DNA from: Candidatus Aminicenantes bacterium
GTDB lineage: Bacteria > Acidobacteriota > Aminicenantia > Aminicenantales > Aminicenantaceae
Assembly (NCBI GenBank): GCA_004377005.1
Contig: SOIV01000051.1
Span: 1-54,187, forward strand
Length of the DNA stretch: 54,187 nucleotides
Direction: 5' to 3'
Shown here: positions 675 to 19,651 of the stretch, one piece after another
How positions within the stretch are numbered: position 1 is the stretch's first letter
Layout of the letters: every line of letters starts with the position of its first letter
Made by a program: the position numbers and the translations under genes
Notes under the pieces: model-generated
What the model saw: only the letters and a program-made list of their open reading frames with translations
Databases searched by the model: none
Told to the model about the DNA's origin: nothing

Positions 675-771
675 AGAGAGAGCTTGAGCAGATTAAAAAA
701 AATTGATTAAGTACCCGATTCTCAAAGCCGTTTAGAGCAAGAGAATGCATAGGATAAATGACCCCTGGGTT

Positions 772-799
772 GTGTCGCTGAAGATGCATTATATCTACT
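772..799 (+). other. Degenerate XerC/XerD dif-like site
   Basis: GTGTCGCTGAA-GATGCA-TTATATCTACT in an 11-6-11 layout. The spacer is the same as at 10599, and the site is preceded by CCCCTGGG like the variant-C repeats. Confidence 0.5.
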
Positions 800-1019
800 C
801 GCTACCTATAAAATGACTTTTAGAGGGCAAAACAAATTATTGAGGCCAGCGAAGCCGAATAACATAAAATAAATAGAATTATACTCCAGTATTCCATAAG
901 ATTAATCACCCCCCCATGCTAATTTCTTCAAAAAATAACCCCCCAAATCATCTTTAGAGATGATTTACTTCTTGCTAAGATGATTATAGATTAAAAAAGA
1001 ACATGAGAGGAGGAAAAAA

Positions 1020-1532
1020 ATGAAAAAGCTAATTCTTTTTGCATTTATTGTAACATTACTCTTATGGGGGTGCACTTCTTCTGATGGAACGGGAAATTTC
1101 AAACTCTATTTGACAGATCAGCCAATTGATAATGCAGAAGAAATATTAGTCACAATAAGCGAGATAAACGTCCAAAAAGCTGAGGAAGGTTTTTTAACTA
1201 TATGGGAAGGTGATGAAGAATATGATTTGCTCAAATTACAGGAGATAGAAGTTCTTATGCTAAATATTACATTAAAAGAAGGGACATACACTCAAATTAG
1301 ATTAGTTGTAGCCTCAGGGAGGATCAAGATCGAGGGCGAAAAAGACTATGATAACATGACTGTACCCAGTTCAGAGGTAAAAATCCCTGTGATTTTCAAT
1401 GTTATGGATGGTGGTAATACTGAAATAGTTTTAGACTTTGAGGCAGAACACTCGATACATGTGGTATATGCTGGTCAAAGAAAAGAATATAAATTAAGGC
1501 CTGTGATCATAGTAAAAAGCATAACTTATTAG
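1020..1532 (+). CDS. DUF4382-family lipoprotein
   Basis: GAGGAGG RBS, lipobox LWGC, and motifs LYLTDQP, GTYTQIRL, VPSSEVK, VLDFEAEHS, LRPVI. Confidence 0.8.
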   Translation: MKKLILFAFIVTLLLWGCTSSDGTGNFKLYLTDQPIDNAEEILVTISEINVQKAEEGFLTIWEGDEEYDLLKLQEIEVLMLNITLKEGTYTQIRLVVASGRIKIEGEKDYDNMTVPSSEVKIPVIFNVMDGGNTEIVLDFEAEHSIHVVYAGQRKEYKLRPVIIVKSITY

Positions 1533-1829
1533 CGCGATCGTTTAGAAGAAGTACGAGCAGTCACCCCTTCAGACTTTGAAGTCGGTCTCTACGATGTCAA
1601 AGTCATCAATCCTGATGGGCAGAGTGCTTCACTGGCTGACAGGCTTGAGATTACAGGCAGTCCGTCGCCTACTGTAACATCTGTCACACCGACTTCCGGC
1701 TGGAGCGGGGAGGATACCAGGATCACCATCACAGGTGAGGATTATATCTCAACACCCCAAGTTACCATCAGTACTACCCCGGCAAAACTGGAAGCCAAAT
1801 CCCCTAAAGCCCTAGCTTCCCTGGATTGA
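1533..1829 (+). pseudogene. IPT/TIG (Ig-like) repeat fragment with no start codon of its own
   Basis: In frame after the TAG at 1530-1532: RDRLEEVRAVTPSDFEVGLYDVKVINPDGQSASLADRLEITGSPSPTVTSVTPTSGWSGEDTRITITGEDY..., running into repeat R1. Confidence 0.65.
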
Positions 1830-1879
1830 AAAAGGACGCTGAGCGAATTTAAAGCTAATTTCTTTTTCCCGAGAAGATT
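1790..1879 (+). repeat. Hairpin repeat R1 (variant A, leads into a dif-like site)
   Basis: GGAAGCCAAATCCCCTAAAGCCCTAGCTTCC-CTGGATTGAAAAAGGACGCTGAGCGAATT. 35 bp are identical to R4 and the tail is shared with R5. Confidence 0.85.
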
Positions 1880-1907
1880 GCATCGCATAATCGATATTAT
1901 GTTAACT
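1880..1907 (+). other. XerC/XerD dif-like recombination site (best copy)
   Basis: GCATCGCATAA-TCGATA-TTATGTTAACT versus E. coli dif GGTGCGCATAA-TGTATA-TTATGTTAAAT: 22/28 overall, XerD arm 10/11. Confidence 0.85.
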
Positions 1908-2098
1908 TATGACTTCTAAGTAATTGATTATCAAGAAATCAGAAAAATAATGAAATTTGAAAATCCGGAAATTAGTGACTGAAAATCGGGGGATTGCCCC
2001 CATATTTCGTTCTCCTTCATTTGAATCAAATTTTCCTTTGTGCTATAAGTCGAAGAGTTACAGCTCGGGGTCAATATGAATCCAACAAGGAGGGAAAA

Positions 2099-2647
2099 AT
2101 GAAAAAATTATTTATGATTATTCCTCTGATCCTGCTTATTTGTTTTACACTTAACTGCCAAAACCAGGAAGCAATGGCAGAGCTTGAAGAGATAAAAGCC
2201 CAGGCAGAGGTTGAGGCTCAAAATGAGGAACTCATACGTAATTACTTTAAGGAGTTGGACAAAGGAAACGCTGAGATTCTAAAAGAAGTATATACTCCTG
2301 ATGCTGCTTACTACTTTCCATCGGGGATTTCCGAATCCATGTCCGTAGAACATGAAATAGAAATGGTAAAGATGTTTCATAATGCCATCCCTGACCTTAT
2401 CCATAATATTGAAGAATTGTTTTCTGTAGGGGATAGGATTATTGTCAGGTTTGTTGCCAGAGGTACTTACACTGGAGAACTTGAAGAAATGGGTCTTCCT
2501 GCAACAGGTAATAAAGTAGAAGTTAGCTCAATCATTATTTTCCGCATTGAAAATGGAAAAGTTGTAGAGGAAAGACAAGAGGCTGATATGTTAGGTTTTA
2601 TGCAGCAACTCGGCATGGAGCTAAAGCCTAAGGAGGCTGAGAAATAA
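2099..2647 (+). CDS. SnoaL-like ester cyclase / NTF2-fold exported protein (copy 1)
   Basis: AAGGAGG RBS before the ATG at 2099, signal peptide, and motifs AIPDL, GDRIIVRF, GLPATGNKVEV, FRIENGKVVE. Confidence 0.85.
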   Translation: MKKLFMIIPLILLICFTLNCQNQEAMAELEEIKAQAEVEAQNEELIRNYFKELDKGNAEILKEVYTPDAAYYFPSGISESMSVEHEIEMVKMFHNAIPDLIHNIEELFSVGDRIIVRFVARGTYTGELEEMGLPATGNKVEVSSIIIFRIENGKVVEERQEADMLGFMQQLGMELKPKEAEK

Positions 2648-2682
2648 TTACTATATTTGCTTTTCATAGGGTTGAGCCGACT

Positions 2683-2744
2683 GGAAGCCAAATACCCTGA
2701 AGCCCTGGCTTCCCGAAGAGTGAAAAAGACAGGTGAGCGCGATT
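2683..2744 (+). repeat. Hairpin repeat R2 (variant B)
   Basis: GGAAGCCAAATACCCTGAAGCCCTGGCTTCC...GGTGAGCGCGATTAGC. Confidence 0.85.
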
Positions 2745-2770
2745 AGCGTCTCATTGGGAGAGACGCTTTT
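2745..2770 (+). terminator. Putative intrinsic terminator
   Basis: AGCGTCTC-ATTGGGA-GAGACGCT followed by TTT. Confidence 0.45.
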
Positions 2771-2814
2771 AGATTTATAGATTTCTCATTTCTAAAAAAA
2801 ATAAGGAGGACAAA

Positions 2815-3369
2815 ATGAAAAAATCACTCACTCAATTATTCTTAGTAATTTCTCTTTGCTTCTTGCTGTGTTTTAGTATCAGTTGTCAAAATCAGGAAGC
2901 AATGGCAGAGCTTGAAGCGATGAAAGCCCAGGTAGAGGTTGAGGAGCAGAATAAGGCTCTTGTAAATCGTATGTATGAAGCGTTCAGCACAGGAGATTTT
3001 GAGGCTTATAAGGAGATGGTAGCTCCTGAGTATGTTTGGTACTTTCCATCAAGAAGTACTAAACCCGTGTCCCGAGAAGAAACAATAGAATTTGTAAAGA
3101 TGCTTCGTAATGCTTTTCCTGATATTGCTTACAGTATTGAAGAATTAATTGCTGTAGAGGACAGAGTTATATCCAGGTTTATAGTGAGAGGTACTCACGA
3201 AGGAGAATATCAAGGAATCCCTGCGACTGGGAATAAGATTGAAGTTAGTGGGATTGTGATGACCCGCATTGAAAATGGAAAAATTGTAGAGGATAAGGAA
3301 GAATTGGACGCGTTAGGTCTTATGATGTAACTCGAAATGGAACTTAAGCCGAAGGAGGCTGAAAAATAG
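2815..3369 (+). CDS. SnoaL-like ester cyclase (copy 2) with a premature TAA at 3328-3330 removing the last 13 aa
   Basis: Paralog of 2099..2647. After the stop the frame continues LEMELKPKEAEK*, matching the paralog's QLGMELKPKEAEK* (probable CAA>TAA). Confidence 0.8.
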
Positions 3370-3406
3370 TTCCTGTATCTGCTATTTCATAGGATTTGAG
3401 CCAAGT

Positions 3407-3486
3407 GGAAGCCAAAGACCCTAAAGCCTAGGCTCATCCCTAGATAATCAATCCTCCCAGCTTCCTCTATCCCCAGGGGTGAGATT
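3407..3486 (+). repeat. Repeat R3 (variant C, leads into a dif-like site)
   Basis: GGAAGCCAAAGACCCTAAAGCCTAGGC...GATAATCAATCCTCCC...TATCCCCAGGG, shared with 10546-10598. Confidence 0.8.
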
Positions 3487-3514
3487 GTGTCGTCTAAGAT
3501 ACAATTTGTTACGA
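3487..3514 (+). other. Degenerate dif-like site
   Basis: GTGTCGTCTAA-GATACA-ATTTGTTACGA, at the same position after the repeat as the 10599 site. Confidence 0.5.
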
Positions 3515-3749
3515 ATCAGGGCGGAAGCCGGGATATTTATCAATTGCCTCTTAAGGCATCCGCTGTGCCTGCGGGTTCTCCTATACGAATGACGACCTGT
3601 ATTCATTAAGTTTGACTATTTCTTGATTAATTTATATCCTATTCTCGGCAAAGTTAGGGGAATAATGACAACAAAGTGTCCTAATGCTAATCAGATATTG
3701 GAGAGCTGGGCAGAGGAGGAATGGGAAGAGTATACAAAAGGGGGATGTT

Positions 3750-4655
3750 ATGACTGATCAAAAAGATTTGGAATATACTTACACTCTTTTCGACAATATT
3801 TTTCGTCATAGTTATGGCGAAATGGCGGACTTTAGCGGAGCAGTTTATAATGGGGATTTTTCAATGTCCCTTGAACAGGCCCAGAGACAAAAGCATGAAT
3901 TTATTGCTGAAAGTTTAAACATTAAAGAGGGCTCTAGAGTCCTTGACATGGGCTGTGGGTGGGGGCCGTTTTTAAAGTTTATTGAAGAGAGAGGTGCAAA
4001 GGGTATTGGTGTGACATTATCCACTGGACAGGCAGAGGCCTGTATTAAAAATGGATTGGATGTGCATTTCATGGACTGTAGAACAATCAGTCCTGCGACG
4101 TTTGGAAAATTCGATGCAATTGTTTCATTAGGTGCATTTGAACATCATTGCTCCAAAGAAGAATGGAAGGCAGGGAAACAAGACACAATTTATAATAATT
4201 TTTTCAGGGTTGTTTCTGACCTTTTACATGAAGAAAAAAGGTTTTACCTGCAAACCATGACGTTTGGCAAAAACATGATTGATGCTGATGAGATTGATAT
4301 TAATGCGGAAAAAGGTTCCGATGCGCACATATGCGCACTCGTGGAAGGGATTTTCCCTGGTTCTTGGTTGCCTTCTGGCAGGGAACAGATCATAGAAAAT
4401 GTGAAACCTTTTTTTAAATTAATATCCATTAGTAACGGAAGATTGGATTATATAGAAACCCTAAAACAATGGGGAAAGAAATGGAGGGAATTTAGCTTTA
4501 AGAAATACTTGTTTTATTGTACTTTAATCCCAAAATACCTCACAAACAAGAACTTTCGAAAGCGATTAGACTTATCCGGGATAGACCCACACAGATTATG
4601 TTTTGAACGTGAAATTATTGACCACTTAAGGATTGTTTTTGAAAAAGTTTCCTAG
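3750..4655 (+). CDS. Class I SAM-dependent methyltransferase, cyclopropane-fatty-acyl-phospholipid synthase-like
   Basis: Motifs SLEQAQRQK, VLDMGCGWG, GVTLS..Q, FDAIVSLGAFEH, IFPGSWLP, YIETL. Confidence 0.85.
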   Translation: MTDQKDLEYTYTLFDNIFRHSYGEMADFSGAVYNGDFSMSLEQAQRQKHEFIAESLNIKEGSRVLDMGCGWGPFLKFIEERGAKGIGVTLSTGQAEACIKNGLDVHFMDCRTISPATFGKFDAIVSLGAFEHHCSKEEWKAGKQDTIYNNFFRVVSDLLHEEKRFYLQTMTFGKNMIDADEIDINAEKGSDAHICALVEGIFPGSWLPSGREQIIENVKPFFKLISISNGRLDYIETLKQWGKKWREFSFKKYLFYCTLIPKYLTNKNFRKRLDLSGIDPHRLCFEREIIDHLRIVFEKVS

Positions 4656-4669
4656 GGGATGGTCATATA

Positions 4670-4730
4670 GGGGAAACATTACTTAATTTGTTAGAGATTT
4701 GATTATTTTGTAATTAAGTAATGTGTCCCC
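4670..4730. repeat. 19-bp inverted repeat, REP/MITE-like
   Basis: GGGGAAACATTACTTAATT-N23-AATTAAGTAATGTGTCCCC with one mismatch. Confidence 0.75.
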
Positions 4731-4758
4731 TTTTTTTGTGAGGAGGGAAGAAGAGATC

Positions 4759-5865
4759 ATGGGTCATATAAATTCGAAATCAAAGATTTGGGATGAGCTT
4801 CGCAAAAGGTTGGATCGCCATTCCACAGGGCTACCCCGCCACGCAGCCATCGAGCGAATACTCGCCTTGCTTTTCACCAAGGATGAAGCAGAGCTGGCAA
4901 CCGTCTTTCCTCTCACAACGGTTCTGATAGAGGAACTGGTTTCAAAAACCGGACGTAAAGAGGCGGAGTTAATGCCATTGCTGGATTCAATGGCTTCCAA
5001 AGGTCTTGTTATGGAAATCGAGCGTGATAAGCGTACGCATTATTGGCTTTCTGCGGCTTTTCCCGGTTTTTTTGAATACACCTTTATGCGGGTACAAGAG
5101 GGTTTTCCATACCATGAAATGGCAAAACTCTTAGATGATTACTTTAAGCAAAGCGATTTTGCCAAGGAAATAGCGGGTATGAAAACCCAGCGCACCCGGA
5201 CGTTAATCCGTCGTGATGCCATTGGAGATGATTTTATCAGCGAGGTTTTACCCTACGAAACAGCACGCGGTTTGATTGAACAGGTGGATTACGGGAGTCT
5301 GCAGACCTGCTATTGCCGTCACAAGAATGTACATCTAGGAAAAACGTGTTCTCTTGGAGCACCTGTGGACGATATCTGTATGAGTTTTGGAGTTACGGCC
5401 GATTTTCTCATTAAACGCGGTTTTGCTCGCCGCGCAGACCAAAACGAATTGCTCCGCACTCTTGACAGCGCGGAAGAGCTTGGATTAGTTCATGTAGCAG
5501 ACAATTTTCGTGAGAATGTGGTTTTTATGTGTCACTGCTGCGGCTGTTGCTGCGAACTTTTGAAGATGTTAACGAGGAAGCGTATCCATCACGGTATCGC
5601 TCCCACTCGGTTCGTGCCATTGGTTGACAACCAAAAGTGTGTAGGATGCGGAACTTGTGAGGACCGTTGCCAAATCAACGCCATTGAAGTTGGGCCCGAG
5701 GGGATTGCCAATACTAAAGAAAAATGGTGTATTGGTTGTGGAGTGTGCGTTAATTTTTGCACCTCAGAGGCATTATATTTGCAATTGCGACACGAACCGA
5801 TAGTGCCACCCCGGAATCTTCGTGCAATGACATTGAAAATTCTCAAAGAAAAAAAAGAGCAGTGA
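4759..5865 (+). CDS. 4Fe-4S dicluster ferredoxin-domain protein with N-terminal wHTH-like region
   Basis: CYCRH, MCHCCGCCC, CVGCGTCEDRC and CIGCGVCVNFC motifs. AGGAGG RBS. Confidence 0.85.
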   Translation: MGHINSKSKIWDELRKRLDRHSTGLPRHAAIERILALLFTKDEAELATVFPLTTVLIEELVSKTGRKEAELMPLLDSMASKGLVMEIERDKRTHYWLSAAFPGFFEYTFMRVQEGFPYHEMAKLLDDYFKQSDFAKEIAGMKTQRTRTLIRRDAIGDDFISEVLPYETARGLIEQVDYGSLQTCYCRHKNVHLGKTCSLGAPVDDICMSFGVTADFLIKRGFARRADQNELLRTLDSAEELGLVHVADNFRENVVFMCHCCGCCCELLKMLTRKRIHHGIAPTRFVPLVDNQKCVGCGTCEDRCQINAIEVGPEGIANTKEKWCIGCGVCVNFCTSEALYLQLRHEPIVPPRNLRAMTLKILKEKKEQ

Positions 5866-5874
5866 GTCAAATAG

Positions 5875-8800: not shown

Positions 8801-10287
8801 TCAAATTCGAAATCGTTCTTTGTGTATCTGTAGGTTAAGGGACCGATGTAGATGCTGTTTTTTGTACTAATATCTCTCAATTGAGAAGCTAAATTCACAG
8901 CCTCACCTATGACTGAGTATACTTTATCTGTGCTGCCAACGCCTGCTATTACCGTGCCGGAGTTGACTCCAATACGTATACTCAGAGGAATCCTGAGGTT
9001 CTCTTTCTTGTTGAATGTATCCAGAGTGTTACGTAGCTCTATGGCCGCATTTATCGCCTTTTTTGGTGCGTCCTCTATAGCTTGGGGGATACCAAAGGAC
9101 GCCATGAAACTCCCCCCCGTGGTCTCATCTATCCGGCTTTCGTATTTCCTGATAACAGAATCAAACATCGCAAAACAGCGATTGATCACTAAAGCTGCTT
9201 CTTCTGTTTCCAGGCTCTCCAGAACCTCCGAATAACCGAGTATCTCGCCGGAAAATATAGTAGCTTGCCGCCGTTCCGTTTCCCTCCCTGCTTCCAAACT
9301 TTTCTTTGCAGCCAGATCTTCTTTTTCCTTCTCCAGAGATATTTTGAGCTTGGTCAAATCTGATATGAGCCGGTCTGCTGATTGATACCGCCTCTCTGGT
9401 TGCTTCCGCAGACACTTCAAGACAATACGTTCTGCTTCCTCCGGAATATCCTCCTTCAAATCCATTGGGGGTTTAGGAGTATTGTGGATGATCGCATACA
9501 ACATCGATTGCTCATTTTCCCCTTGAAACGGAAGATATCCAGTAAGCAATTCATAAAACACTACTCCCAGGGACCACAGGTCTATGTGTTGGTCCGTACT
9601 TTCTCCCATGGCCTGCTCGGGAGACATGTATGCCGGAGTGCCTGTAATTGACGATGTCAGGGTCAGTTTCGCCTCACTGACCAGTTTGGCCAGGCCAAAA
9701 TCGACGATCTTTATGACTCGATCACTTGTTTCTATGATGTTAGCCGGCTTGATGTCCCGATGAACTATCCCCTCACTATGCGCCTTGGACAATCCCTGAG
9801 CCACCTGGATCACGATCTCTATTGCATCAGCTAAAGGGACAGCCCCCCTCTTGATCTTTTGCCTAAGCGTCTCTCCCTCATAATAGGCCATGGCGATATA
9901 CAACTGGCCATCTTCGGTCTCATCGATCTCATGGATAGTGCATATGTTCTGATGATCGAGAACTGAAACTGTCTGGGCTTCCAGGACAAAACGCACCTTG
10001 GCATCTTTATGGCTGCTGAGTGCAGAAGGCAAAAACTTGAGAGCAACAAAGCGTTTAAGTTTATCATCCTTGGCTTTGTACACCACTCCCATGCCGCCCC
10101 TGCCAAGCTCTTCATGTATTTTATACCTGCCAGCAAAAATTGTTTCAGGTTTGAATTTTATCCTGGGAAGGAAGATGGTTTCAGGGTCGGCGATTAAAGT
10201 TTCATCAGAAACTGTAAAAGAGGTGGCACATTTAATGCAAAACTGGGAATCTTCTGGATTTGGGGTATCGCAATGAGGACACTTCAT
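5875..10287 (-). CDS. Zinc ribbon + Ser/Thr kinase + degenerate class III nucleotide cyclase + AAA ATPase + TPR protein
   Basis: CPHC..CIKC; kinase motifs LGRGGMGVVY, VALK, HRDIKPAN, DFG, YMSPEQ; cyclase motif IRIGVNSG; Walker A GEAGIGKS; LEDLHWAD, GNPFF, YLFKHAL. Confidence 0.9.
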   Translation of the reverse strand: MKCPHCDTPNPEDSQFCIKCATSFTVSDETLIADPETIFLPRIKFKPETIFAGRYKIHEELGRGGMGVVYKAKDDKLKRFVALKFLPSALSSHKDAKVRFVLEAQTVSVLDHQNICTIHEIDETEDGQLYIAMAYYEGETLRQKIKRGAVPLADAIEIVIQVAQGLSKAHSEGIVHRDIKPANIIETSDRVIKIVDFGLAKLVSEAKLTLTSSITGTPAYMSPEQAMGESTDQHIDLWSLGVVFYELLTGYLPFQGENEQSMLYAIIHNTPKPPMDLKEDIPEEAERIVLKCLRKQPERRYQSADRLISDLTKLKISLEKEKEDLAAKKSLEAGRETERRQATIFSGEILGYSEVLESLETEEAALVINRCFAMFDSVIRKYESRIDETTGGSFMASFGIPQAIEDAPKKAINAAIELRNTLDTFNKKENLRIPLSIRIGVNSGTVIAGVGSTDKVYSVIGEAVNLASQLRDISTKNSIYIGPLTYRYTKNDFEFETLESVSLKGRTEPVTVFRLLSVKERVYRARLGAERMIYSEMVGREKELNKLKLHVLKAINGEGSVVNVIGEAGIGKSRLVAELSRRDELKKVTLLRGRALSIGSNLSFHPIIDILKSWALIKEEDPPDASAQKIEKVIRNVFPEGVSEIFPFIATLMGIKLTGKYAERVKGIEGDALEKLILKNFRDLIARASVTKPLVFVLEDLHWADLTSVDLFESLYRLAESNSILFINVLRPDYGTGERILRTIRNRYSDYSTEINLEPLDGSQSEALIGNLLNVEALPIRIRELIARRAEGNPFFIEEVARSFIDDGVVEIENGHFRVTEKIDSVVIPETINDVIMARVDKLEEQTKSLLKIASVIGRNFFYKILAEVARRVEEIDDRLEHLKEVQLIKERRRMKELEYLFKHALAWDAVYNSILLKKKKQLHLDVARSIESVFCERLHEFYGMLAFHYSRADEMEKAEEFLLKAGEEALKAAASNEALNYFQDAMELYLRKFGDAVSPEKIASLQKNIGMAFYYKGHFAESVEHFDKALEYWGLKRPKSEIKARFKLLIDLLWMMKEINFPSKKRKRTPGKEENDIMETSYRKVMALISIDTYRMFTEAIGLFRRVGKFNLTEMEHGLAFLSGFSALFSYSGVSLKIGKKILGYFKPYLDKCDDRTLFAYDFWKLVCEYLSGDWSKEQEFDEELIDTMMLKGETWHAPGYAGMLSFIKTELGDFRTAQKCCDKFQEIADLYEDDHHKARKSHYYTKLLLRSRKLYDVLDETEKMIHLNNKIGQRLSVIYLLGIRANAQILLKDLDGAESSLLQAAEPVSREKRISPLMISSYLTSQFLLNLCKLEKAIDSGDKSEIKQLRKKAFHFGKENLKNSKKFAAEQTKALRLMGVYFWLIGKQEKAITWWKRSITNGEELDARPELSRTYMEVGKRMSEVKSRIHQLNGISAEEYLGKARSLFVELGIESDLDELDVILSQRS

Positions 10288-10363
10288 TTTAAATGTTCAT
10301 TCCCCTTTAAGCTTTAGTAAGAATAACAATTTATAAGATTCTAGTCAACCCCTTCCATAGTGT

Positions 10364-10418
10364 TGTCAATGCAAAGTAAAAACTTCCGGTTTTCTGCCAC
10401 GCCAAAATTTCCGGTTTT
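10364..10418. mobile_element. Isolated IS21-family-like terminal inverted repeat
   Basis: TGTCAATGCAAAGTAAAAACTTCCGGTTTTCTGCCACGCCAAAATTTCCGGTTTT: TG terminus with tandem internal repeats. No transposase present. Confidence 0.55.
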
Positions 10419-10471
10419 AACATCGATCAAACATGTCCTTATAATCATACTTTTTCCATGGATGCTCCATT

Positions 10472-10543
10472 TGACCTGCCCCCCATCAATGTGCCACCTA
10501 TAAAGTTAAATTTGCAGCCTTTGAGGTTTGCTCCTTTAACCAA
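10472..10543 (-). mobile_element. IS3-family right-end remnant
   Basis: The minus strand reads WLKEQTSKAANLTL* then GTGGCACATTGATGGGGGGCAGGTCA, a typical IS3-family IRR ending in CA. Confidence 0.6.
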
Positions 10544-10545
10544 TG

Positions 10546-10598
10546 AAGCCTAGGCACGTGCATTGATAATCAATCCTCCCTATCCCCAGGGTAAAATT
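10546..10598 (+). repeat. Truncated variant-C repeat
   Basis: AAGCCTAGGC...GATAATCAATCCTCCC-TATCCCCAGGG homologous to 3424-3480. The left part is replaced by the IS3 remnant. Confidence 0.8.
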
Positions 10599-10626
10599 GC
10601 GTCGCATTAGATGCATTATGTCAACC
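10599..10626 (+). other. XerC/XerD dif-like site
   Basis: GCGTCGCATTA-GATGCA-TTATGTCAACC. The ~65 bp downstream is homologous to the flank of the 1880 site. Confidence 0.75.
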
Positions 10627-10755
10627 CATAAATTCTATGCTGTAGATATCAGTAAATCAGAAAAAAACGGCATCTAAAAACTCGGAAATTTTGGGTGCGA
10701 ATCTAGTAATGGTAAGGTCTGGATTTGATACTTATTAAAGTAGCAAAAATTTAAA

Positions 10756-10909
10756 TGTTCATGAAAAATGAACAATGCGAATTATTGAACATTAAACTTT
10801 ATAAAAATAATAAATTCTTATAATTTAAGGGTTGTATAAAAAAAAATATTGACATTTGTACATTTTTTTGTTATGTTCACGAATATTGTACGACTAATAT
10901 AACTGTACA
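10756..10909 (+). promoter_or_regulatory. Sigma70 promoter and probable AbiEi operator array
   Basis: TTGACA(10849)-17 bp-TATGTT(10872). Inverted repeat TGTTCAT-GAAAA-ATGAACA. TGWWCR hexamers at 10756, 10769, 10786, 10857, 10874, 10887 and 10904. Confidence 0.6.
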
Positions 10910-10930
10910 AATACAGGAGTGTGATTATCA

Positions 10931-11971
10931 ATGAACATGGAAATTATGGAGAAAGAAATTTTAAATCGAGCGCTGCAAAAATTTCGTGAAAATACAGGAC
11001 TTACAGCTGAGATAATTGAGATGGCTGCAAGGGCAACTAATGCGGGCTACATTCATGATGCAATAATCAAAATTAAATGGAAAGATTTGGATTACTTTTT
11101 TGCGGTTGAAGTTAAAAACATCATTACGCGTGCGACACTTGGAGGAGCGATACAACAGTTCCATTTATTTAAGGAAAAAGGGATGCTCGTAGCAAGGTAT
11201 ATTACCCCTCAAATAGCAGACGAGCTAAAAAAAATGGACATTCCTTTCATGGACGTCACAGGAAATGCATATATAAATGAACCACCTTTGCTTATCTTCA
11301 TAAAAGGGAATAAGCCTACTGATAAATATCGCTTAGAGCAGCCGGTGCGGACATTTCGACCGGCAGGACTACAAGTTATTTTTGCACTTTTATGCAATCA
11401 AGGTCTGGAAAATGCTCCTTTTAGAGAAATAGCTAATAAAGCAGCTGTTGCCTTAGGAACAGTCGGCTGGGTTATGTACGATCTAAGGAGAACGAACTAT
11501 CTGATGGATCTACATCCACGAAATCGACGATTGATTCGCAAAGAAAATTTGTTGAACAGATGGGCTACTGTATATCCTGAGCAATTGCGACCGAAAAAGA
11601 TGCTGGGCCGCTTTCGTGCGGATAAACAGGATTGGCGGAAGTATGCAGAAATAAAAGATATTAAAGGTCTGTGGGGCGGCGAGCTGGCTGCAAACATATT
11701 GACCAAATATCTGAAGCCACAAATTTATACAATTTATGCAAAACTCCCTATTGGTAGGTTTTTACTGAAAAACAAGCTTAAAAAGGATAACAATGGAGAT
11801 ATAGAAATTCTCAATATATTTTGGGAGTTCGGGCTTGATCGGTTAAATGATGAGTTGGTGCCTCCCCTCTTGATTTACGCGGACCTTCTTGCAACAGGTG
11901 ATGCCCGAAATATTGAAACTGCGAGGATTATTTATGAAAGGGAACTTACTAGACTTATCGGGGAAGATTGA
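10931..11971 (+). CDS. abiEi: Type IV toxin-antitoxin antitoxin, AbiEi family
   Basis: Motifs FAVEVK, FMDVTGNAYI, HTH region FREIANKAAVALGTV, WGGELAA, VPPLLIYADLL..GDARNIETA. Confidence 0.8.
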   Translation: MNMEIMEKEILNRALQKFRENTGLTAEIIEMAARATNAGYIHDAIIKIKWKDLDYFFAVEVKNIITRATLGGAIQQFHLFKEKGMLVARYITPQIADELKKMDIPFMDVTGNAYINEPPLLIFIKGNKPTDKYRLEQPVRTFRPAGLQVIFALLCNQGLENAPFREIANKAAVALGTVGWVMYDLRRTNYLMDLHPRNRRLIRKENLLNRWATVYPEQLRPKKMLGRFRADKQDWRKYAEIKDIKGLWGGELAANILTKYLKPQIYTIYAKLPIGRFLLKNKLKKDNNGDIEILNIFWEFGLDRLNDELVPPLLIYADLLATGDARNIETARIIYERELTRLIGED

Positions 11972-12797
11972 TAAAGTTAGACTGCTAGCTTTTGAGAAAG
12001 TTTCAAAGGTAGCAGACTATCTAGGTATCCCATTCTTTATAATAGGTGCTGCAGCTAGGGATTTGATACTTATGAATGGCCATAACATACCTACTATCAG
12101 AGCTACTCTTGATATTGATTTTGGAGTTCAAGTTCCAAGTTGGGATCAATATTTGAGACTAAAACAAGGCTTAATGGAGACGGGTGAATTTACTGAAACC
12201 GAGGATGTCCAGAGGATGATGTTTCATAGCAGTCTAAGAATAGATTTAATTCCATTCGGGCCGATTGCAGATAACACAAGTACGATTAAATGGCCGCCCA
12301 GTCAGGAAATTGTGATGAGTGTTCTTGGATTTGAGGAATCATTCCGTCATTCACAAACTGTTAGACTAAGTTCAAATCCCAAACTTGACATAAAAATAGT
12401 AACACTAGCTGGTTTAGCGGCTATGAAAATAATCTCTTGGAAAGATAGATACCCAGAACGCGATAGAGATGCAAGCGATTTAGCATTAATTATTCGAAAC
12501 TATACAGATGCAGGAAATGTTGAGCGGATTTTTGATGAAGCATTAGATTTAGTGGACTCTGAAGATTTTGATTATGTATCTGTTGGAGCGCGATTACTGG
12601 GTCGAGATATCGCTGTGATTCTTTCAACTGATGCCAAGGCTGTAGTTTTAGAAATATTGAATAATGAAACAGGAAAGCAAGATCGTTATAGACTTCTAGA
12701 AGATATGATGCGGAGTGATTTATTATTAACCAATGATTTTGAAGATGTACTCAGGTGGCTTGAGGAAGTGAAAACAGGAATTTTGGAGGGGATTTAA
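11934..12797 (+). CDS. abiEii: AbiEii/AbiGii-family nucleotidyltransferase toxin
   Basis: Motifs IIGAAARDL, RATLDIDF, IDLIPFG, MKIISW.DR, RDASDL. Overlaps the antitoxin 3' end. Confidence 0.8.
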   Translation: MKGNLLDLSGKIDKVRLLAFEKVSKVADYLGIPFFIIGAAARDLILMNGHNIPTIRATLDIDFGVQVPSWDQYLRLKQGLMETGEFTETEDVQRMMFHSSLRIDLIPFGPIADNTSTIKWPPSQEIVMSVLGFEESFRHSQTVRLSSNPKLDIKIVTLAGLAAMKIISWKDRYPERDRDASDLALIIRNYTDAGNVERIFDEALDLVDSEDFDYVSVGARLLGRDIAVILSTDAKAVVLEILNNETGKQDRYRLLEDMMRSDLLLTNDFEDVLRWLEEVKTGILEGI

Positions 12798-12881
12798 GCA
12801 GAACTAATAAATAATGAATCTTTTGAGATGATGAAATCCTTAATACAAACTGCGCATATCTATATGTAATTCATAAAATCT

Positions 12882-12892
12882 GCGTCGCATAT
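12882..12892 (+). other. Isolated XerC-arm-like half site
   Basis: GCGTCGCATAT matches the first 9 nt of the 10599 left arm. No recognisable XerD arm. Confidence 0.35.
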
Positions 12893-13239
12893 CTATTACT
12901 ACGGAATATGGCACAATTTGTTTTACCGAAGCTTACTGGGGTTATCGGGGAAAGGGGAAAGGAAAATTTGTAACCGAGAAACCAATCAGGGCGGAAGCTC
13001 CCTTCAAGTTTACAACCACCTGGACTAGGTATTGACTCTAATTACAAATTAATGCATACGCCTCGAGCAACCTTAACCCTTTAGTTGCCCAAAAAAGAAG
13101 TAGCCAACTATCTGAGGTCTAAGTCTCGAGCTCTAACAGAAAAACTGCTAATTCTGGAATATTATTTTTCTTTCACAATCGCCATTAACCAGAAATAGGC
13201 AATCAAAATTAACACGAATCTGTCCACTTCCACAAGCAA

Positions 13240-13268
13240 TTGACCTCATTTTTTTCCTATGATATAAG
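13240..13268 (+). promoter_or_regulatory. Sigma70 promoter with extended -10
   Basis: TTGACC-17 bp (ending TGA)-TATAAG upstream of the 13389 gene. Confidence 0.5.
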
Positions 13269-13388
13269 CCATAGAGAGTGTTAGCTTCAGCTAGTTGGAG
13301 GGATCGTTAATTCTGCTCCTGCTATTTTCATTAGGCTGATTTCACGAAAAATTAAATCTAGCTCAAAGATTAGGAGGGATAACCGATA

Positions 13389-14873
13389 ATGAAGAAAAAC
13401 TGGATGGCAGAACTCACCTATCATTATGAAAAAACTCGGCGCCGATATCCTCAAGATCGGCTGATGATTCTTTTTGATATCGACGGTACAATTCTAGATA
13501 TGCGCTATATGGTATTTCATGTTCTGAAAGCCTTTGATAAAAAGCATGACACCCATTTTTTTCGAAAGCTTAGTGTCTCTGATATTACTGTACATGAGAA
13601 TCAAGTGGATAGTTTTTTAGCAGAGTTACGAATTCCATCAGAGGAACAGAGAGAGATCATAAAGTGGTATAATCAGCATCGCTGGTCTTCGGAGTATATC
13701 CTTCAGTCTCACCATCCATTTTCTGGGGTCCTTGAGGTTATTCGATGGTTCCAACTCCAGCCAAATACCTTTGTTGGCTTGAATACTGGACGGCCTGAAT
13801 CAATTCTAAGTGATACCTTAAGATCCCTGAATAAATTAGGTAAAGAGTATAAAGTTCAATTTAGCGATGAACTGTTGCATATGAATCCTCAGGGCTGGGA
13901 ACAAGAAGTAGAAAATTCGAAGGTTGCTGGAGTGCGCCATTTTCAAAAAAAAGGGTATCGCATCTTCGCCTTTGTAGACAACGAGCCCGATAATTTGAAG
14001 GTGGTCTCCAATATTGATCCAGATCAAGAAATTCTCCTGCTTCATGCGAATACTATCTTCGAATCTAAAAGGACCAGATTACCTTCCCGTACGGTCAAAG
14101 GTAAAGCATACGACATAACTGAACTAATTCCTGAGAAAGAACTGCCCCAGCATATTCAATTTGTTTGGCATGGTATAAACGACGAAGTGAACTTACGTCA
14201 ATTTCTAGCTTCTGAGATTACTTGGGGTGAATGTGATGTTCGTATGGATCCAATAGCCAATGAGTTGATTCTTCGTCACGATTCCTTTGTAGAACTCCCT
14301 CTGGATGTAGACGAAGAGTGGTTTAGTTTGGATCGCCTGCTCCATCGCTTGTTAAAAACAGGCAAGTCAATTAAGCTCGATTTAAAGGCAGGCGGTATTT
14401 TGGTAGATAAGGTTTTGAAATTCATTGAATCTTCCAGCTTTGATGAATCTTGCCTGTGGTTTAACGGCAATGTGGAAAGACTGCAAGAGCAAGGGTTCAG
14501 AAAATTAGCCAGTGCCTACCCCAATGCTATTTTGCAATGCCCTGTTGATTTTTTAGCTCCTCTGATTAGCAGTGCCCCAGAAAAAGCTAAGGAAATACTC
14601 GATATGTTTATAAAATGGGGTATCAACCGCTTTTCCATTAGTTGGAAAACTCAGGACATGCGCAATTTCTTTGATCAGATGGATAAGTGGGGATTTGAAG
14701 TCAATATTTACAACGTTCCTGATTTAGAGTCATTCCTGGAGGTGGTGCTTCTCATGCCGCGATCTATCACGTCCGATTTCAATTTTCCTAAATGGCATTA
14801 TTATGGCAGAGGCTCAGGAGAAGATGGTAGCCATTATGAATATTCTATACGAAAGACGATTGGAAGAAGGTAG
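13389..14873 (+). CDS. HAD-family hydrolase fused to a PLC-like phosphodiesterase (Menorin/FAM151-like) TIM-barrel domain
   Basis: HAD motifs FDIDGT, LNTGR, K, FVDNEPDN. C-terminal FVWHGIND..GECDVR..RHD..IKLDLK. Confidence 0.65.
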   Translation: MKKNWMAELTYHYEKTRRRYPQDRLMILFDIDGTILDMRYMVFHVLKAFDKKHDTHFFRKLSVSDITVHENQVDSFLAELRIPSEEQREIIKWYNQHRWSSEYILQSHHPFSGVLEVIRWFQLQPNTFVGLNTGRPESILSDTLRSLNKLGKEYKVQFSDELLHMNPQGWEQEVENSKVAGVRHFQKKGYRIFAFVDNEPDNLKVVSNIDPDQEILLLHANTIFESKRTRLPSRTVKGKAYDITELIPEKELPQHIQFVWHGINDEVNLRQFLASEITWGECDVRMDPIANELILRHDSFVELPLDVDEEWFSLDRLLHRLLKTGKSIKLDLKAGGILVDKVLKFIESSSFDESCLWFNGNVERLQEQGFRKLASAYPNAILQCPVDFLAPLISSAPEKAKEILDMFIKWGINRFSISWKTQDMRNFFDQMDKWGFEVNIYNVPDLESFLEVVLLMPRSITSDFNFPKWHYYGRGSGEDGSHYEYSIRKTIGRR

Positions 14874-14916
14874 GTGCAAATAGACGCTAACACACCATGA
14901 AAAATTATCCAAAGCA

Positions 14917-14990
14917 GGAAGCCAAAGACCTTGAAGCCCTGGCTTCCCTGGATTGAAAAAGGACGCTGAGCGAATTAGCACCCCATAGCT
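14917..14990 (+). repeat. Hairpin repeat R4 (variant B)
   Basis: GGAAGCCAAAGACCTTGAAGCCCTGGCTTCCCTGGATTGAAAAAGGACGCTGAGCGAATTAGC. Confidence 0.85.
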
Positions 14991-15010
14991 AAAGAGGAGT
15001 AAGGAAAAAA

Positions 15011-15193
15011 ATGAATGTTGAAGAGAGGCTGAAAGCTCAAAGAATAGTAATCGCTATTGCTTTGATATTAATGTCGTTGATTTCATTTAATTTCGCCTTA
15101 AAAGGCACTTACACAATTATTTCTTTAATTGTAGGCTTTGCTTTTTTAGGGATGGCGCTTTTTCTCTTGTTTGGATTAAAGAAAAAACATTGA
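15011..15193 (+). CDS. Small two-TM membrane protein (60 aa) between repeats R4 and R5
   Basis: AGGAG/AAGGA RBS, two hydrophobic helices and a basic tail. Confidence 0.65.
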   Translation: MNVEERLKAQRIVIAIALILMSLISFNFALKGTYTIISLIVGFAFLGMALFLLFGLKKKH

Positions 15194-15200
15194 GGCGAGT

Positions 15201-15290
15201 GGAAGTCAGAGACCCTTAAGCCCTGGCTTCCCGAAATTGAAAGGGACAGCTGAGCGAATTTAAAGTTAATTTCTTTTCCCCGAGAGGACA
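15201..15290 (+). repeat. Hairpin repeat R5 (variant A)
   Basis: GGAAGTCAGAGACCCTTAAGCCCTGGCTTCC...GCTGAGCGAATTTAAAGTTAATTTCTTTTCCCCGAGAGG, colinear with R1. Confidence 0.85.
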
Positions 15291-15318
15291 GTGTCGTAGA
15301 ATTACCAATGTGTCCCGC
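15291..15318 (+). other. dif-like XerC arm with highly degenerate right half
   Basis: GTGTCGTAGAA-TTACCA-ATGTGTCCCGC, at the position occupied by the 1880 site after R1. Confidence 0.45.
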
Positions 15319-15374
15319 ATACTTCAGGACGAGCTTAAACGTAAGAAGTCTATAATTAAGTAAAGAATGGTGTT

Positions 15375-16523: not shown

Positions 16524-16661
16524 CATAGGCAATACTCAGGGACGGGCAACATATTGTGAGTCAAAACAAACATTTTGTTGCGTTCGTACTCTATTTTGCC
16601 CGCCACACATATGAAATGCACATTATGCCCCGACGTCACCTTTCTTTTATCACCGAGCTCA

Positions 16662-17849: not shown

Positions 17850-17965
17850 ACAAATGAAACATACATTCCTGCCAGCCCTTCGGGTCTGTCCTTTGATAAA
17901 CAGGCCCCAAAAGAAGGGACAAGCACGAAGACCTGTTCTATTATTTAAAAGAAGGATAATGAATT

Positions 17966-19501: not shown

Positions 19502-19651
19502 GACGTTTTTGCCGAAAAAGATGATAATTATTTGTAAAGAAACTTCTTTCACAGCTTGTAGAGCCTTCGCCCGTTTTACTGCTATTCTCTAAACTTGACT
19601 TCACCGACACCTGAGAATAAAATCTACCCATAACCAAAATAGAGATAAAAG

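What the first reader, a model, noticed from the sequence alone, without database searches (positions are those of the whole stretch)
772..15318. Candidate chromosomal Xer/dif gene-cassette array (integron-like, no local integrase)
Seen: up to six dif-like sites or half-sites, all oriented XerC arm to XerD arm on +, at 772, 1880, 3487, 10599, 12882 (half) and 15291. Four directly follow a conserved repeat and 772 follows a remnant of it. They separate unrelated accessory modules: DUF4382, SnoaL pair, methyltransferase/4Fe-4S/kinase, AbiE pair, HAD plus small membrane protein, and the gal genes. Known: chromosomes usually carry one dif, IMEX elements and Acinetobacter pdif modules exploit host XerCD, and cer/psi need accessory DNA next to the XerC arm. 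Inference: a host-XerCD-driven system that accumulates cassettes in direct-repeat orientation, unlike the alternating pdif sites. Sites 772 and 10599 share the spacer GATGCA and could excise a ~9.8 kb circle.
Basis: partly seen in the sequence, partly recalled or inferred. Interest (0 to 1): 0.88.

Follow-up and report, generated by a model that had tools for sequence, protein, structure and literature searches.

The report
Integrase-free dif-site gene cassette array
An uncultivated marine-sediment bacterium (Candidatus Aminicenantes) carries a chromosomal island whose accessory gene modules are separated by extra copies of its own chromosome-resolution (dif) site, and related genomes and metagenomes show modules swapped exactly at these sites, so it behaves like an integron that has no integrase of its own.

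Summary
Window 771-15317 has six same-strand dif-like sites. Three are strong (771, 1879, 10598; 27-39 bits). Three are decayed (3486, 12881, 15290).

They match this lineage's own dif. The true dif lies on another contig (C305:15672-15699) and sits in a conserved flank in three sister species. Such sites are rare. In a 96-genome family sample, 40 had none and most others one. G004 had 24, arranged in arrays, and this genome had 3.

Array sites differ from true dif by a box (CCCCGAGAAGAC) directly 5' of the XerC arm, often preceded by a 30-nt stretch and a hairpin repeat. In 80 metagenome contigs with 90 sites:
- sites on all 7 multi-site contigs are co-oriented;
- the nearest upstream ORF is co-oriented in 69 of 71 cases;
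- only 2 contigs hold any tyrosine recombinase;
- the same left cassette occurs with different right cassettes, with the break inside the 28-bp core.

The syntenic island in G004 shares only the HAD module.

Best reading (0.6): an integron-like cassette platform shuffled by site-specific recombination at extended dif sites, most simply by host XerC/XerD. The enzyme, circular intermediates and the proposed 9.8 kb circle are not shown. I rate it a new variant of Xer 'dif modules'. Interest 0.72.

The parts
108..674 (+). Left flank ORF with no Pfam family. Its last 50 nt (626-674) recur in the syntenic G004:C83 island, just after tRNA-Pro and tRNA-Arg.
771..798 (+). dif-like site A: XerC arm 771-782, spacer GATGCA 783-788, XerD arm 789-798. 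Only a CCCC remnant lies upstream.
   Evidence: 27.4 bits; register; a counterpart stands at G004:C96:9543
1020..1532 (+). DUF4382 lipoprotein-like gene (module 1)
   Evidence: Pfam PF14321, E 6e-27
1551..1826 (+). Remnant of an IPT/TIG-domain gene. The frame runs on into the hairpin module.
   Evidence: Pfam PF01833, E 2.7e-8
1779..1878 (+). Hairpin module (1779-1849) plus type-1 accessory (1850-1878), which ends in the CCCGAGAAGAT box
1879..1906 (+). dif-like site B, the best in the window: XerC arm 1879-1890, spacer TCGATA, XerD arm 1897-1906
   Evidence: 38.8 bits; 0 mismatches to the pattern
1907..1973 (+). Right-flank repeat that follows XerD arms elsewhere (G004:C83 at L026:18165-18242 and 19773-19840, and run contigs)
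1994..3330 (+). Two SnoaL-like genes (1994-2647 and 2815-3330). Between them lie a hairpin-only module (2672-2745) and a terminator-like stem (2745-2767).
3396..3485 (+). Partial hairpin module (3396-3436) plus type-2 accessory (3437-3485)
3486..3513 (+). Decayed dif-like site C with spacer GATACA. Both arms are eroded.
   Evidence: 5.8 bits; in register behind the type-2 accessory; an intact relative stands in run X18 (table 5c)
3684..10287 (.). Module of a CMAS-like methyltransferase (3684-4655 +), a 4Fe-4S protein (4723-5865 +) and a 1470-aa Ser/Thr kinase-cyclase-AAA-TPR protein (5875-10287 -)
   Evidence: 4597-10471 is conserved in runs of several studies (table 8)
10545..10597 (+). Type-2 accessory
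10598..10625 (+). dif-like site D, spacer GATGCA (the same as site A)
   Evidence: 28.2 bits; 1 mismatch to the pattern
10931..12797 (+). AbiEi/AbiEii toxin-antitoxin-type pair
   Evidence: Pfam PF09952 and PF08843
12881..12898 (+). Half-site E: XerC arm plus spacer CTATTA. The XerD arm has been replaced.
   Evidence: Identical to the left 18 nt of the intact site at G004:C83:59119; complete in run X18 (table 5c)
13237..14978 (+). HAD-hydrolase module (ORF 13389-14873) with its own leader and a terminal hairpin module (14906-14978). It is the only module shared with G004:C83 (97% over 1742 nt).
15011..15289 (+). 60-aa membrane-like ORF (15011-15193), hairpin module (15190-15260) and type-1 accessory (15261-15289)
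15290..15317 (+). Site F: XerC arm and spacer are intact, the XerD arm is decayed
   Evidence: 5.7 bits; in run X4 the same left half is joined to an intact XerD arm plus right flank (joint 15306->1897)
15375..19501 (+). Aldose 1-epimerase, galactokinase and sodium:solute symporter genes. They are absent from the syntenic G004 locus.
19594..19993 (-). Start of conserved backbone (110-aa gene, 19601-19933), 91% identical to G004:C83. This is the right edge of the island.

Best explanation
Window 771-19593 is a hypervariable chromosomal island in a Candidatus Aminicenantes genome. It lies between a tRNA-Pro/tRNA-Arg flank (off the contig, inferred from synteny) and a type IV pilus cluster. The island is built as an array of gene cassettes.

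Each cassette is one or a few co-oriented genes followed about 100 nt later by an 'extended dif site'. That site has a CCCCGAGAAGAC-type box (often preceded by a 30-nt stretch and a hairpin repeat), then a 12-nt XerC arm, a 6-nt spacer and a 10-nt XerD arm that copy the lineage's own dif.

Proposed mechanism, all inferred:
- The host's XerC and XerD bind the two arms.
- Two sites with compatible spacers recombine within the core.
- Between direct repeats this excises the intervening cassettes as a circle carrying one site. The reverse reaction inserts such a circle at any array site.
- The XerC-side box marks these sites off from true dif. By analogy with cer, psi and IMEX sites it may allow recombination away from the septum and FtsK.

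What is shown: the site structure, its rarity, its polarity, and its coupling to cassette junctions in nature. In this window three sites are still intact (771, 1879, 10598) and three junctions have decayed (3486, 12881, 15290), so this copy of the platform is partly fossilised.
For: (1) The sites equal the host's dif. The family dif (28 nt, mostly one per genome) has the same two arms. The true dif of this genome is C305:15672-15699. Its flank is 82-92% identical over about 3.6 kb to the dif flank of G006, G003 and G002.

(2) Rarity. With the 28-nt pattern and up to 1 mismatch, 56 of 96 family genomes have a match and only 5 have three or more: G004 24, G074 4, and G000, G071 and G106 3 each. 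The reversed-pattern control gave 0 in all 96. Five PWM hits of 20 bits or more in G000 compare with 0 in each of 3 simulations.

(3) XerD and XerC genes are present and score above the NCBIfam cut-offs.

(4) Arms are conserved but spacers are free. In 13 type-1 sites the mean information is 1.55 bits (XerC arm), 1.59 (XerD arm) and 1.28 (30 nt upstream), against 0.49 for the first five spacer positions. There are 26 distinct spacers among 28 sites.

(5) The box is coupled to the site. It occurs 104 times in 280,787 nt of metagenome contigs, against 0.5 expected. The 14 occurrences that the search pattern did not select are all followed by a XerC arm, and 12 of the 14 by a XerD arm. None of 5 true dif sites has the box.

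(6) Polarity. All 7 multi-site contigs are co-oriented. The nearest upstream ORF is on the site strand in 69 of 71 cases, with a median of 102 nt from stop codon to XerC arm. ORF bases number 209,715 on the site strand against 38,913 on the other. G004:C96 has 8 scored co-oriented sites within 9 kb, with all cassette ORFs on the same strand.

(7) Exchange at the core. Six contig pairs share the left side but not the right, and 5 of them are true cases. Their sequences diverge at +24 or +29 of the site. Seven pairs share the right side but not the left, and the spacer differs in 4 of them. A Wzy gene 86% identical to that of G004:C96 carries the same site, and homology ends inside the XerD arm. 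Run contigs join the left half of site F to the XerD arm and flank of site B, and they complete half-site E.

(8) No dedicated enzyme nearby. Two of 80 contigs hold a tyrosine recombinase, and none lies on the window contig.

(9) The syntenic G004:C83 island has other cassettes and shares only the HAD module.
Against: - No biochemical or read-level proof that XerC/XerD act here.
- No circular contig among the 80 held, and no 771/10598 joint among the joints printed (61 further joints were not printed).
- Many boundaries of shared sequence lie at the hairpin module rather than at a dif-like site. Examples are both ends of the HAD module and many joints. Homologous exchange at repeats therefore also shapes these islands.
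- Neighbouring sites in arrays almost always have different spacers. By what is known of Xer recombination this should hinder full two-strand exchange (PMC11705084 passages).
- The window's arrangement around 3486, 10598 and 15290 is found unchanged in runs of three other studies (table 8), so it is stable in this lineage.
- The exchange evidence rests on short-read metagenome assemblies. Two of the collections may be the same or related samples.
- In G004, four contigs with solitary sites also hold phage-type integrases 3-8 kb away.
- Arm conservation is partly imposed by the search pattern.
Confidence: 0.6

Rival explanations
1. The dif-like sequences are passive passengers of a REP-like intergenic repeat (hairpin + accessory + fossil dif). 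Modules are reshuffled by homologous recombination and horizontal transfer using the repeats as portable homology. Xer plays no part.
For: - The hairpin module is an independent repeat. It has 52 copies in the held loci and is present in 6 of 6 sister genomes, mostly without any dif-like site.
- The HAD module's homology ends at the hairpin module, not at a site.
- Many run joints lie between hairpin or accessory copies, for example 3434->14954 and 3433->10565.
Against: - Neutral repeats would not keep both arms at 1.5-1.6 bits while the five spacer positions between them fall to 0.49 bits.
- In pairs such as L072/L096 and L066/L100 the upstream accessory is unique. The only shared stretch is about 40-45 nt of box plus core, yet the partners differ from the XerD arm onward.
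- All 14 unselected boxes carry a XerC arm.
Confidence: 0.15
2. A dedicated recombinase encoded elsewhere performs the exchange, and the likeness to dif is convergent or ancestral. Candidates are a phage-type integrase or an integron-type integrase acting in trans.
For: - G004, the genome richest in sites, has 8 PF00589 matches. They include phage-type integrases on C115, C91 and C103 and a fragment on C161, each 3-8 kb from a solitary dif-like site.
- Contig L084 has a related integrase 1.3 kb downstream of a site.
- An integron-integrase C-terminal remnant lies on G000:C127, and a full-length but TAA-interrupted intI on G004:C47.
Against: - 78 of 80 site-bearing contigs have no tyrosine recombinase.
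- The assembled G000 (83% complete) has only XerC, XerD and the IntI remnant.
- No dif-like site or hairpin lies near the G004 intI, and there is no attC-like repeat family beside it.
- The solitary sites near phage-type integrases lack the box.
- Both arms match the host dif.
Confidence: 0.15
3. The array is a stack of IMEX-type elements (integrated phages or plasmids that use Xer) laid down one after another at the chromosomal dif in the replication terminus.
For: - There is one well-preserved site beside degenerate ones.
- Sites 771 and 10598 share a spacer, like the two ends of an integrated element.
- The region on the XerC side of the true dif is itself variable between sister genomes.
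Against: - The true dif is on another contig with a conserved flank.
- The syntenic G004 locus is next to tRNA genes and a pilus cluster, not dif.
- G004 has arrays on at least three contigs.
- There is no GC-skew inflection across the window.
- Cassettes are 0.2-2.4 kb with one to a few unrelated genes and no phage or plasmid functions.
- No match turned up in viral contigs.
Confidence: 0.05

Closest known systems
Acinetobacter dif modules, including chromosomal and plasmid 'dif module islands'
   Same: - Accessory gene modules are bounded by extra 28-bp XerC/XerD-type sites with variable 6-nt central regions.
- The sites cluster into multi-module islands.
- No recombinase lies inside the modules and host XerCD is presumed to act.

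Sources: abstract of PMC12907356 and passages of PMC11705084.
   Different: - There, most flanking pairs are in opposite orientation, and no accessory sequences were found next to the sites (PMC11705084 passages).
- Here, sites within an array are co-oriented on all 7 multi-site contigs and the upstream gene is co-oriented in 69 of 71 cases.
- Here, a conserved box abuts the XerC arm.
- The host is an uncultivated Aminicenantes and the arrays are chromosomal.
Integrons (intI, attI, attC cassette arrays; CALIN clusters)
   Same: - Arrays of short, mostly single-gene, co-oriented cassettes, each ending in a recombination site.
- Very diverse cargo: 490 ORFs fall into 385 clusters.
- A fixed entry site at the end of a conserved backbone gene.
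   Different: - There is no integrase beside the arrays.
- The sites are double-strand dif-type cores, not folded attC sites.
- I recall the attC 3' core as GTTRRRY. The XerD arm does not fit it.
IMEX elements (recalled examples: CTX and TLC phages, the gonococcal island; LME-1 in Legionellales appeared only as a search listing)
   Same: Mobile DNA without its own recombinase that borrows XerC/XerD and carries dif-like sites. Degenerate sites are left at the junctions.
   Different: IMEX elements sit at the chromosomal dif and are phages, plasmids or islands with their own replication or transfer genes. Here the arrays lie away from dif, several occur per genome, and the units are bare gene cassettes.
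cer/psi-type plasmid multimer resolution sites
   Same: A Xer core with conserved extra sequence on the XerC-arm side, acting between direct repeats. The XerC arm departs further from dif than the XerD arm does.
   Different: cer and psi use about 180 bp bound by PepA with ArgR or ArcA, a detail I recall beyond the short mention in passages of PMC11705084. Here the constant part is a 12-14 nt box, no binding protein is known, and the setting is chromosomal arrays rather than plasmids.

Membership tests
Xer recombination site (dif-type core) | Two inverted arms around a 6-nt central region, with the inner ...ATAA / TTAT... motif | tested here: met
   Sites 1879 and 10598 fit the 28-nt pattern with 0 and 1 mismatch. 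Site 771 scores 27.4 bits. Sites 3486, 12881 and 15290 do not fit on their own.
Xer recombination site (dif-type core) | Likeness to the host's own chromosomal dif | tested here: met
   The true dif is at C305:15672-15699. The family dif consensus comes from 96 genomes.
Xer recombination site (dif-type core) | Host encodes XerC and XerD | tested here: met
   TIGR02225 scores 374.8 bits (cut-off 329.6) on C313. TIGR02224 scores 348 bits (cut-off 335.15) on C241.
Xer recombination site (dif-type core) | Binding and cleavage by XerC/XerD | not testable with these tools
   This needs EMSA, suicide-substrate or in vivo recombination assays.
Acinetobacter-type dif modules | Modules bounded by sites of alternating (inverted) orientation | tested here: not met
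   All six window sites are on the + strand. All 7 multi-site metagenome contigs are co-oriented. G004:C96 has 8 scored co-oriented sites.
Acinetobacter-type dif modules | Same modules found in different contexts, bounded by the sites | tested here: met
   Same-left/different-right and same-right/different-left pairs, with breaks in the core.
Integron | intI gene with attI next to the array | tested here: not met
   No PF00589 match on the window contig. IntI is only a remnant or pseudogene on other contigs, without such sites nearby.
Integron | attC sites: long imperfect palindromes with a conserved 3' core | tested here: not met
   The conserved unit shows no outer inverted repeat. The hairpin stem shows no covariation beyond shuffles. 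The attC core motif is recalled, not taken from a call.
IMEX | Integrated at the chromosomal dif | tested here: not met
   The true dif lies on C305 with a conserved flank. The island is syntenic with a tRNA/pilus locus. The contig gap beside dif in G000 leaves a small doubt.
cer/psi-type site | Accessory sequence next to the XerC arm, bound by accessory proteins | tested here: inconclusive
   Conserved sequence on the XerC side is present. The binding proteins are unknown and not testable here.

The most novel reading that the evidence does not exclude
This is a second, integrase-free kind of integron. Aminicenantes chromosomes would carry fixed platforms where the housekeeping XerC/XerD pair, redirected by a 12-14 nt box on the XerC side, captures, excises and reshuffles gene cassettes at extended dif sites. 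The cassettes would come from a community-wide pool in marine sediments. The 6-nt spacer classes (TCGGTA, CCGGTA, TGGATA and others) would act as compatibility groups that decide which cassettes can exchange.
Probability: 0.35. Interest if true: 0.88.

Novelty: new variant of a known kind. Interest (0 to 1): 0.72.

Why it matters
Gene-cassette platforms are known almost only as integrons, which need their own integrase and folded attC sites. Xer-bounded modules are known almost only from Acinetobacter, mostly on plasmids and with inverted sites, and their mechanism is still debated.

An array of co-oriented cassettes at extended dif sites, in a deep-branching uncultivated lineage and with natural exchange at the core, would show that the universal chromosome-resolution enzymes can be recruited as a general cassette-shuffling machine.

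It also gives a concrete cis element, the box, to test for FtsK-independent Xer activity. And it gives a simple sequence signature for mining cassette pools in sediment metagenomes.

Tried and rejected
- **Rfam.** No family matched at gathering score over the whole window. None matched at E<=1 over 500-16000.
- **Hairpin as a selected structure.** 85.6% of cells are paired, against 85.5% in shuffles, and covariation is no better than shuffles. There is therefore no support for a conserved fold. It is conserved as sequence.
- **Promoter and terminator scan of 500-16000.** It found 29 promoter-like sites against 33.7 expected and 9 terminator-like against 14.3. This says nothing about cassette promoters.
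- **GC skew.** No inflection at the island. With 54 kb this is weak evidence.
- **attC/integron reading.** Rejected (motif comparison).
- **Circular cassettes.** None of the 80 held metagenome contigs has identical ends.
- **771/10598 junction.** Not among the joints printed. Sixty-one further joints were not printed, and contigs cannot show rare forms.
- **Viral contigs.** 0 matches to the box-plus-site pattern.
- **A recurrent helper gene in cassettes.** None found. The largest cargo cluster is SnoaL-like, with 15 of 490 ORFs.
- **Neighbouring spacers.** They differ in all 10 adjacent pairs of the multi-site contigs. By my own rough estimate about 0.8 identical pairs would be expected by chance, so this is not significant.
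- **G004 ortholog of the true-dif flank.** Not found; only core-site matches came back.
- **Literature.** Searches for Xer or dif cassette arrays, Aminicenantes integrons, IMEX tandem islands, dif modules and integron-like Xer systems listed nothing about direct-repeat Xer cassette arrays or about Aminicenantes. Only listings and abstracts were seen, except the outline and abstract of PMC12907356 and passages of PMC11705084. Supplements were not opened.

Full report
**What is in the window**

The window is a whole 54,187-nt contig (C180) of a 1.93 Mb, 331-contig assembly. The assembly is 83% complete and has 42% G+C. Named relatives are Candidatus Aminicenantes MAGs. Public runs holding near-identical DNA are marine sediment and cold seep metagenomes: 20 of the 24 listed runs, from 11 studies.

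Reading the six places shows a 28-nt unit of a 12-nt left arm, a 6-nt spacer and a 10-nt right arm, always on the + strand. The units start at 771, 1879, 3486, 10598, 12881 (left arm and spacer only) and 15290.

Upstream of four of them lies conserved sequence of two kinds:
- Type 1, at 1779-1878 and 15190-15289. It is a roughly 63-nt module with an 8-bp inverted repeat, then about 30 nt ending in a CCCGAGAAGA-type box that abuts the left arm.
- Type 2, at 3437-3485 and 10545-10597. It has a different 50 nt, ending in CCCCAGGG and a few bases.

The hairpin module also stands alone at 2672-2745 and 14906-14978.

**Is it more than chance?**

I built a 32-nt weight matrix from eight sites of a sister genome plus window 1879, ignoring the spacer. 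In the whole assembly it finds five sites of 20 bits or more among 3.84 million positions, and none in three Markov-1 simulated genomes:
- C305:15702, 40.1 bits
- C180:1876, 38.8 bits
- C180:10595, 28.2 bits
- C180:768, 27.4 bits
- C267:2239, 23.3 bits

The places at 3483, 12878 and 15287 score only 5.8, 2.4 and 5.7 bits. They count as decayed sites for two reasons. First, 3486 and 15290 sit in register behind the accessory. Second, 12881-12898 equals the left 18 nt of an intact site in the syntenic island of G004.

**They are copies of the lineage's own dif**

The C305 site has no accessory. It lies in a flank that is 92%, 84% and 83% identical over about 3.6 kb to the flank of the single best site in G006, G003 and G002.

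A 28-nt IUPAC pattern with up to 1 mismatch was run over 96 genomes of the family:
- 56 of 96 genomes have a match, nearly always one, with the same arms and mostly the spacer GGTATA.
- Only five genomes have three or more: G004 24, G074 4, and G000, G071 and G106 3 each.
- The reversed-pattern control gave 0 in all 96.

So C305:15672-15699 is the true dif, and the window's sites are extra copies.

XerD (C313) and XerC (C241, downstream of topA) are present above the NCBIfam cut-offs. None of five true dif sites carries the box.

**Arrays in relatives**

G004's 24 sites cluster as follows: ten on C96, five on C103, three on C83 and the rest scattered.

On C96, eight scored sites and one decayed one lie on one strand within 9 kb, spaced 0.2-2.4 kb apart, and every cassette ORF is on that strand. 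The cargo is three SnoaL-like proteins, an HD-domain protein, an OMP-like protein, an RRM protein, an HTH protein and unknowns. The array begins directly after a polysaccharide operon that ends in a Wzy-type gene. There is no tyrosine recombinase within C96:1-40000.

G004:C83 is the syntenic locus of the window. It runs from tRNA-Pro and tRNA-Arg, through a short match to window 626-674, three intact sites and a right half-site, to the 110-aa backbone gene, which is 91% identical to window 19594-19993. Between these anchors the two genomes share only the HAD module (window 13237-14978, 97% identical). Everything else differs.

**Metagenome contigs give an independent sample**

Eighty loci holding 90 sites in 280,787 nt were returned. 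The same pattern hit 0 viral contigs. In one-genome-per-species contigs it hit only G004 and one contig labelled Cellulophaga.

In the 80 contigs:
- All 7 multi-site contigs have co-oriented sites, 17 sites in all.
- There are 32 spacers. A few are common: TCGGTA 17, CCGGTA 12, TGGATA 8.
- The nearest upstream ORF is on the site's strand in 69 of 71 cases, with a median of 102 nt from stop codon to left arm. The nearest downstream ORF is on that strand in 48 of 57.
- ORF bases are 209,715 on the site strand against 38,913 on the other.
- Tyrosine recombinase matches occur in 2 of the 80 contigs: L084, a phage-type integrase, and L121, a fragment.
- The 11-nt box occurs 104 times against 0.5 expected. 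All 14 occurrences not selected by the pattern are followed by a left arm, and 12 of them by a right arm, two with a 7-nt spacer.
- 490 cassette ORFs, including those of the window and G004 arrays, fall into 385 clusters. No gene is common to the arrays.

**Signature of function**

In 13 type-1 sites the two arms hold 1.55 and 1.59 bits per position and the 30 nt upstream hold 1.28. The first five spacer positions hold 0.49 bits and the downstream flank 0.43. There are 26 different spacers among 28 sites.

The arms were partly fixed by the search pattern. The upstream accessory and the spacer were not, and a passively decaying repeat would not lose only the five central positions.

**Exchange at the core**

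Among comparable contig pairs, six share the left 150 nt at 93% or more but not the right flank. One of them (L080/L111) is only generic accessory likeness, and L096 and L129 may be one sequence sampled twice. That leaves about four independent cases. In all five true pairs identity runs through the left arm and spacer and ends at +24 or +29. In L072/L096 and L066/L100 the upstream accessory is unique, so the partners share only about 40-45 nt.

Seven pairs share the right flank but not the left. The spacer is the same in three and differs in four.

A contig whose Wzy gene is 86% identical to that of G004:C96 carries the same box, left arm and spacer. It loses homology inside the right arm, at C96:23688.

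Contigs of public runs laid on window 1-20000 show these joints:
- X4 joins 15306 to 1897 with one letter between. That puts the left arm and spacer of decayed site F next to the intact right arm and right flank of site B.
- X18 continues 12898 with an intact right arm and then window 1914 onward, so half-site E is complete in another population.
- X18 also has an intact relative of site C with the spacer GATGCA.
- X18 joins 3433 to 10565, skipping the 7.1 kb kinase module between the two type-2 accessories.

The same call shows that the window's own arrangement across 3486, 10598 and 15290 recurs in runs of three other studies (table 8). It also shows that many joints lie at hairpin modules.

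**What the hairpin repeat is**

It is a separate element. It occurs in 6 of 6 sister genomes and 13 of 24 family genomes searched. It has 52 copies in the held loci, often between genes with no dif-like site, and it ends sharply at ...GAGCGAATT. Its stem shows no covariation beyond shuffles, and no Rfam family matches it. I treat it as a REP-like intergenic repeat that often precedes the box. About a third of the box-bearing sites lack it.

**Rivals**

- *Integron reading.* It fails on its defining features. An integron-integrase remnant (G000:C127) and a TAA-interrupted intI (G004:C47) exist, but they have no such sites, hairpins or repeat family nearby.
- *IMEX stack at dif.* It is unlikely. 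The true dif is elsewhere and G004 has several arrays. There is no skew inflection, and the cassettes carry no phage or plasmid genes. However, the XerC side of the true dif is itself variable between sister genomes, and it abuts a contig end in G000.
- *A dedicated recombinase in trans.* It cannot be excluded. G004 has phage-type integrases 3-8 kb from four solitary sites, all of which lack the box.
- *Homologous exchange at the repeats.* It clearly also occurs, but it does not explain the spacer pattern or the breaks in the core.

**Comparison with what is known**

The closest described system is the Acinetobacter dif-module system, including the recently named chromosomal and plasmid 'dif module islands' (abstract of PMC12907356). 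Passages of PMC11705084 state three things:
- Excision needs direct repeats with identical central regions.
- No accessory sequences were found there.

The present arrays differ in four ways: direct orientation, polarity with the genes, the XerC-side box, and host lineage. In layout they resemble integron cassette arrays, but they are not members of that family. My five literature searches listed no description of such arrays or of Aminicenantes integrons. I did not see supplements.

**Verdict**

Best explanation, at confidence 0.6: an integrase-free cassette platform recombined at extended dif sites, most simply by host XerC/XerD. In this window it is partly fossilised. The enzyme, the role of the box, the circular intermediates and the 771/10598 circle are all inferred, not shown.

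I rate it a new variant of a known kind, with interest 0.72.

Noticed in passing
G000:C127:39535-39717 (L003:1420-1695); G004:C47:23301-24500 (L045): G000 has a 56-aa C-terminal remnant of an integron integrase (TIGR02249, E 2.7e-30). The sister genome G004 has a full-length intI interrupted by one TAA (403.5 bits). Neither has dif-like sites, hairpin modules or an attC-like repeat family nearby.
   Followed up: partly
window 1779-1849, 2672-2745, 3396-3436, 14906-14978, 15190-15260; 52 copies in held loci: A roughly 63-nt intergenic repeat with an 8-bp inverted repeat ends sharply at GAGCGAATT. It is common at the 3' ends of accessory genes across the genus, also without any dif-like site. 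It has no Rfam match and no stem covariation. Its function is unknown.
   Followed up: partly
L031:7724-7758 (contig JAZGEQ010000012.1, labelled Cellulophaga sp. MAG): An exact box-plus-site match with a typical right flank lies on a contig of only 30% G+C. The contig has no other nucleotide likeness to G000. This could be cross-phylum cassette transfer, a chimeric contig or misbinning.
   Followed up: partly
L026:14230-14300 and 14690-14750 (G004:C83): Two stretches that look like tRNA 3' ends lie inside the syntenic island, downstream of intact tRNA-Pro and tRNA-Arg genes (L026:4633-4855). I read them by eye and ARAGORN does not call them. They suggest that tRNA-targeting integrative elements also used this hotspot.
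   Followed up: no
G004:C103:6934-20839 (L053, L057): A roughly 14 kb segment with a 332-aa tyrosine recombinase and an 813-aa ORF is flanked by two dif-like sites in inverted orientation, with the XerC arms facing inward. It lies next to a four-site direct array.
   Followed up: no
G004:C115:12725-17317, G004:C91:24554-33463, L084:5654-8062: Related phage-type integrases lie 1-8 kb from solitary dif-like sites. C115 and C91 are 66% identical to each other, and L084 is 43-45% identical to them. The G004 sites lack the box.
   Followed up: partly
G000:C305 end; G006:C24:4400-12000; G002:C98:5400-10677: The DNA on the XerC-arm side of the true dif is not conserved between sister genomes. In G000 and G003 the contig ends within about 250 nt of dif. 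This is as expected if elements also integrate at the true dif.
   Followed up: partly
window 28100-28283 and 32184-32407: Three short direct repeats (36-44 nt, 88-98% identical) stand about 4.1 kb apart and bracket 28.3-32.2 kb. That stretch holds a pilin-like gene, an acyltransferase and a PEPCK-like gene.
   Followed up: no
window 20370-28895: A type IV pilus cluster sits directly right of the island: PilB-like and PilT-like ATPases, PilC, a PilS/PilR two-component pair and two pilin-like genes. In G004:C96, pilin-like genes and the DUF4382 gene sit beside the other array.
   Followed up: partly
L079:4824, L108:929: In two box-bearing sites the XerD arm is displaced by one base, giving a 7-nt spacer.
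   Followed up: no
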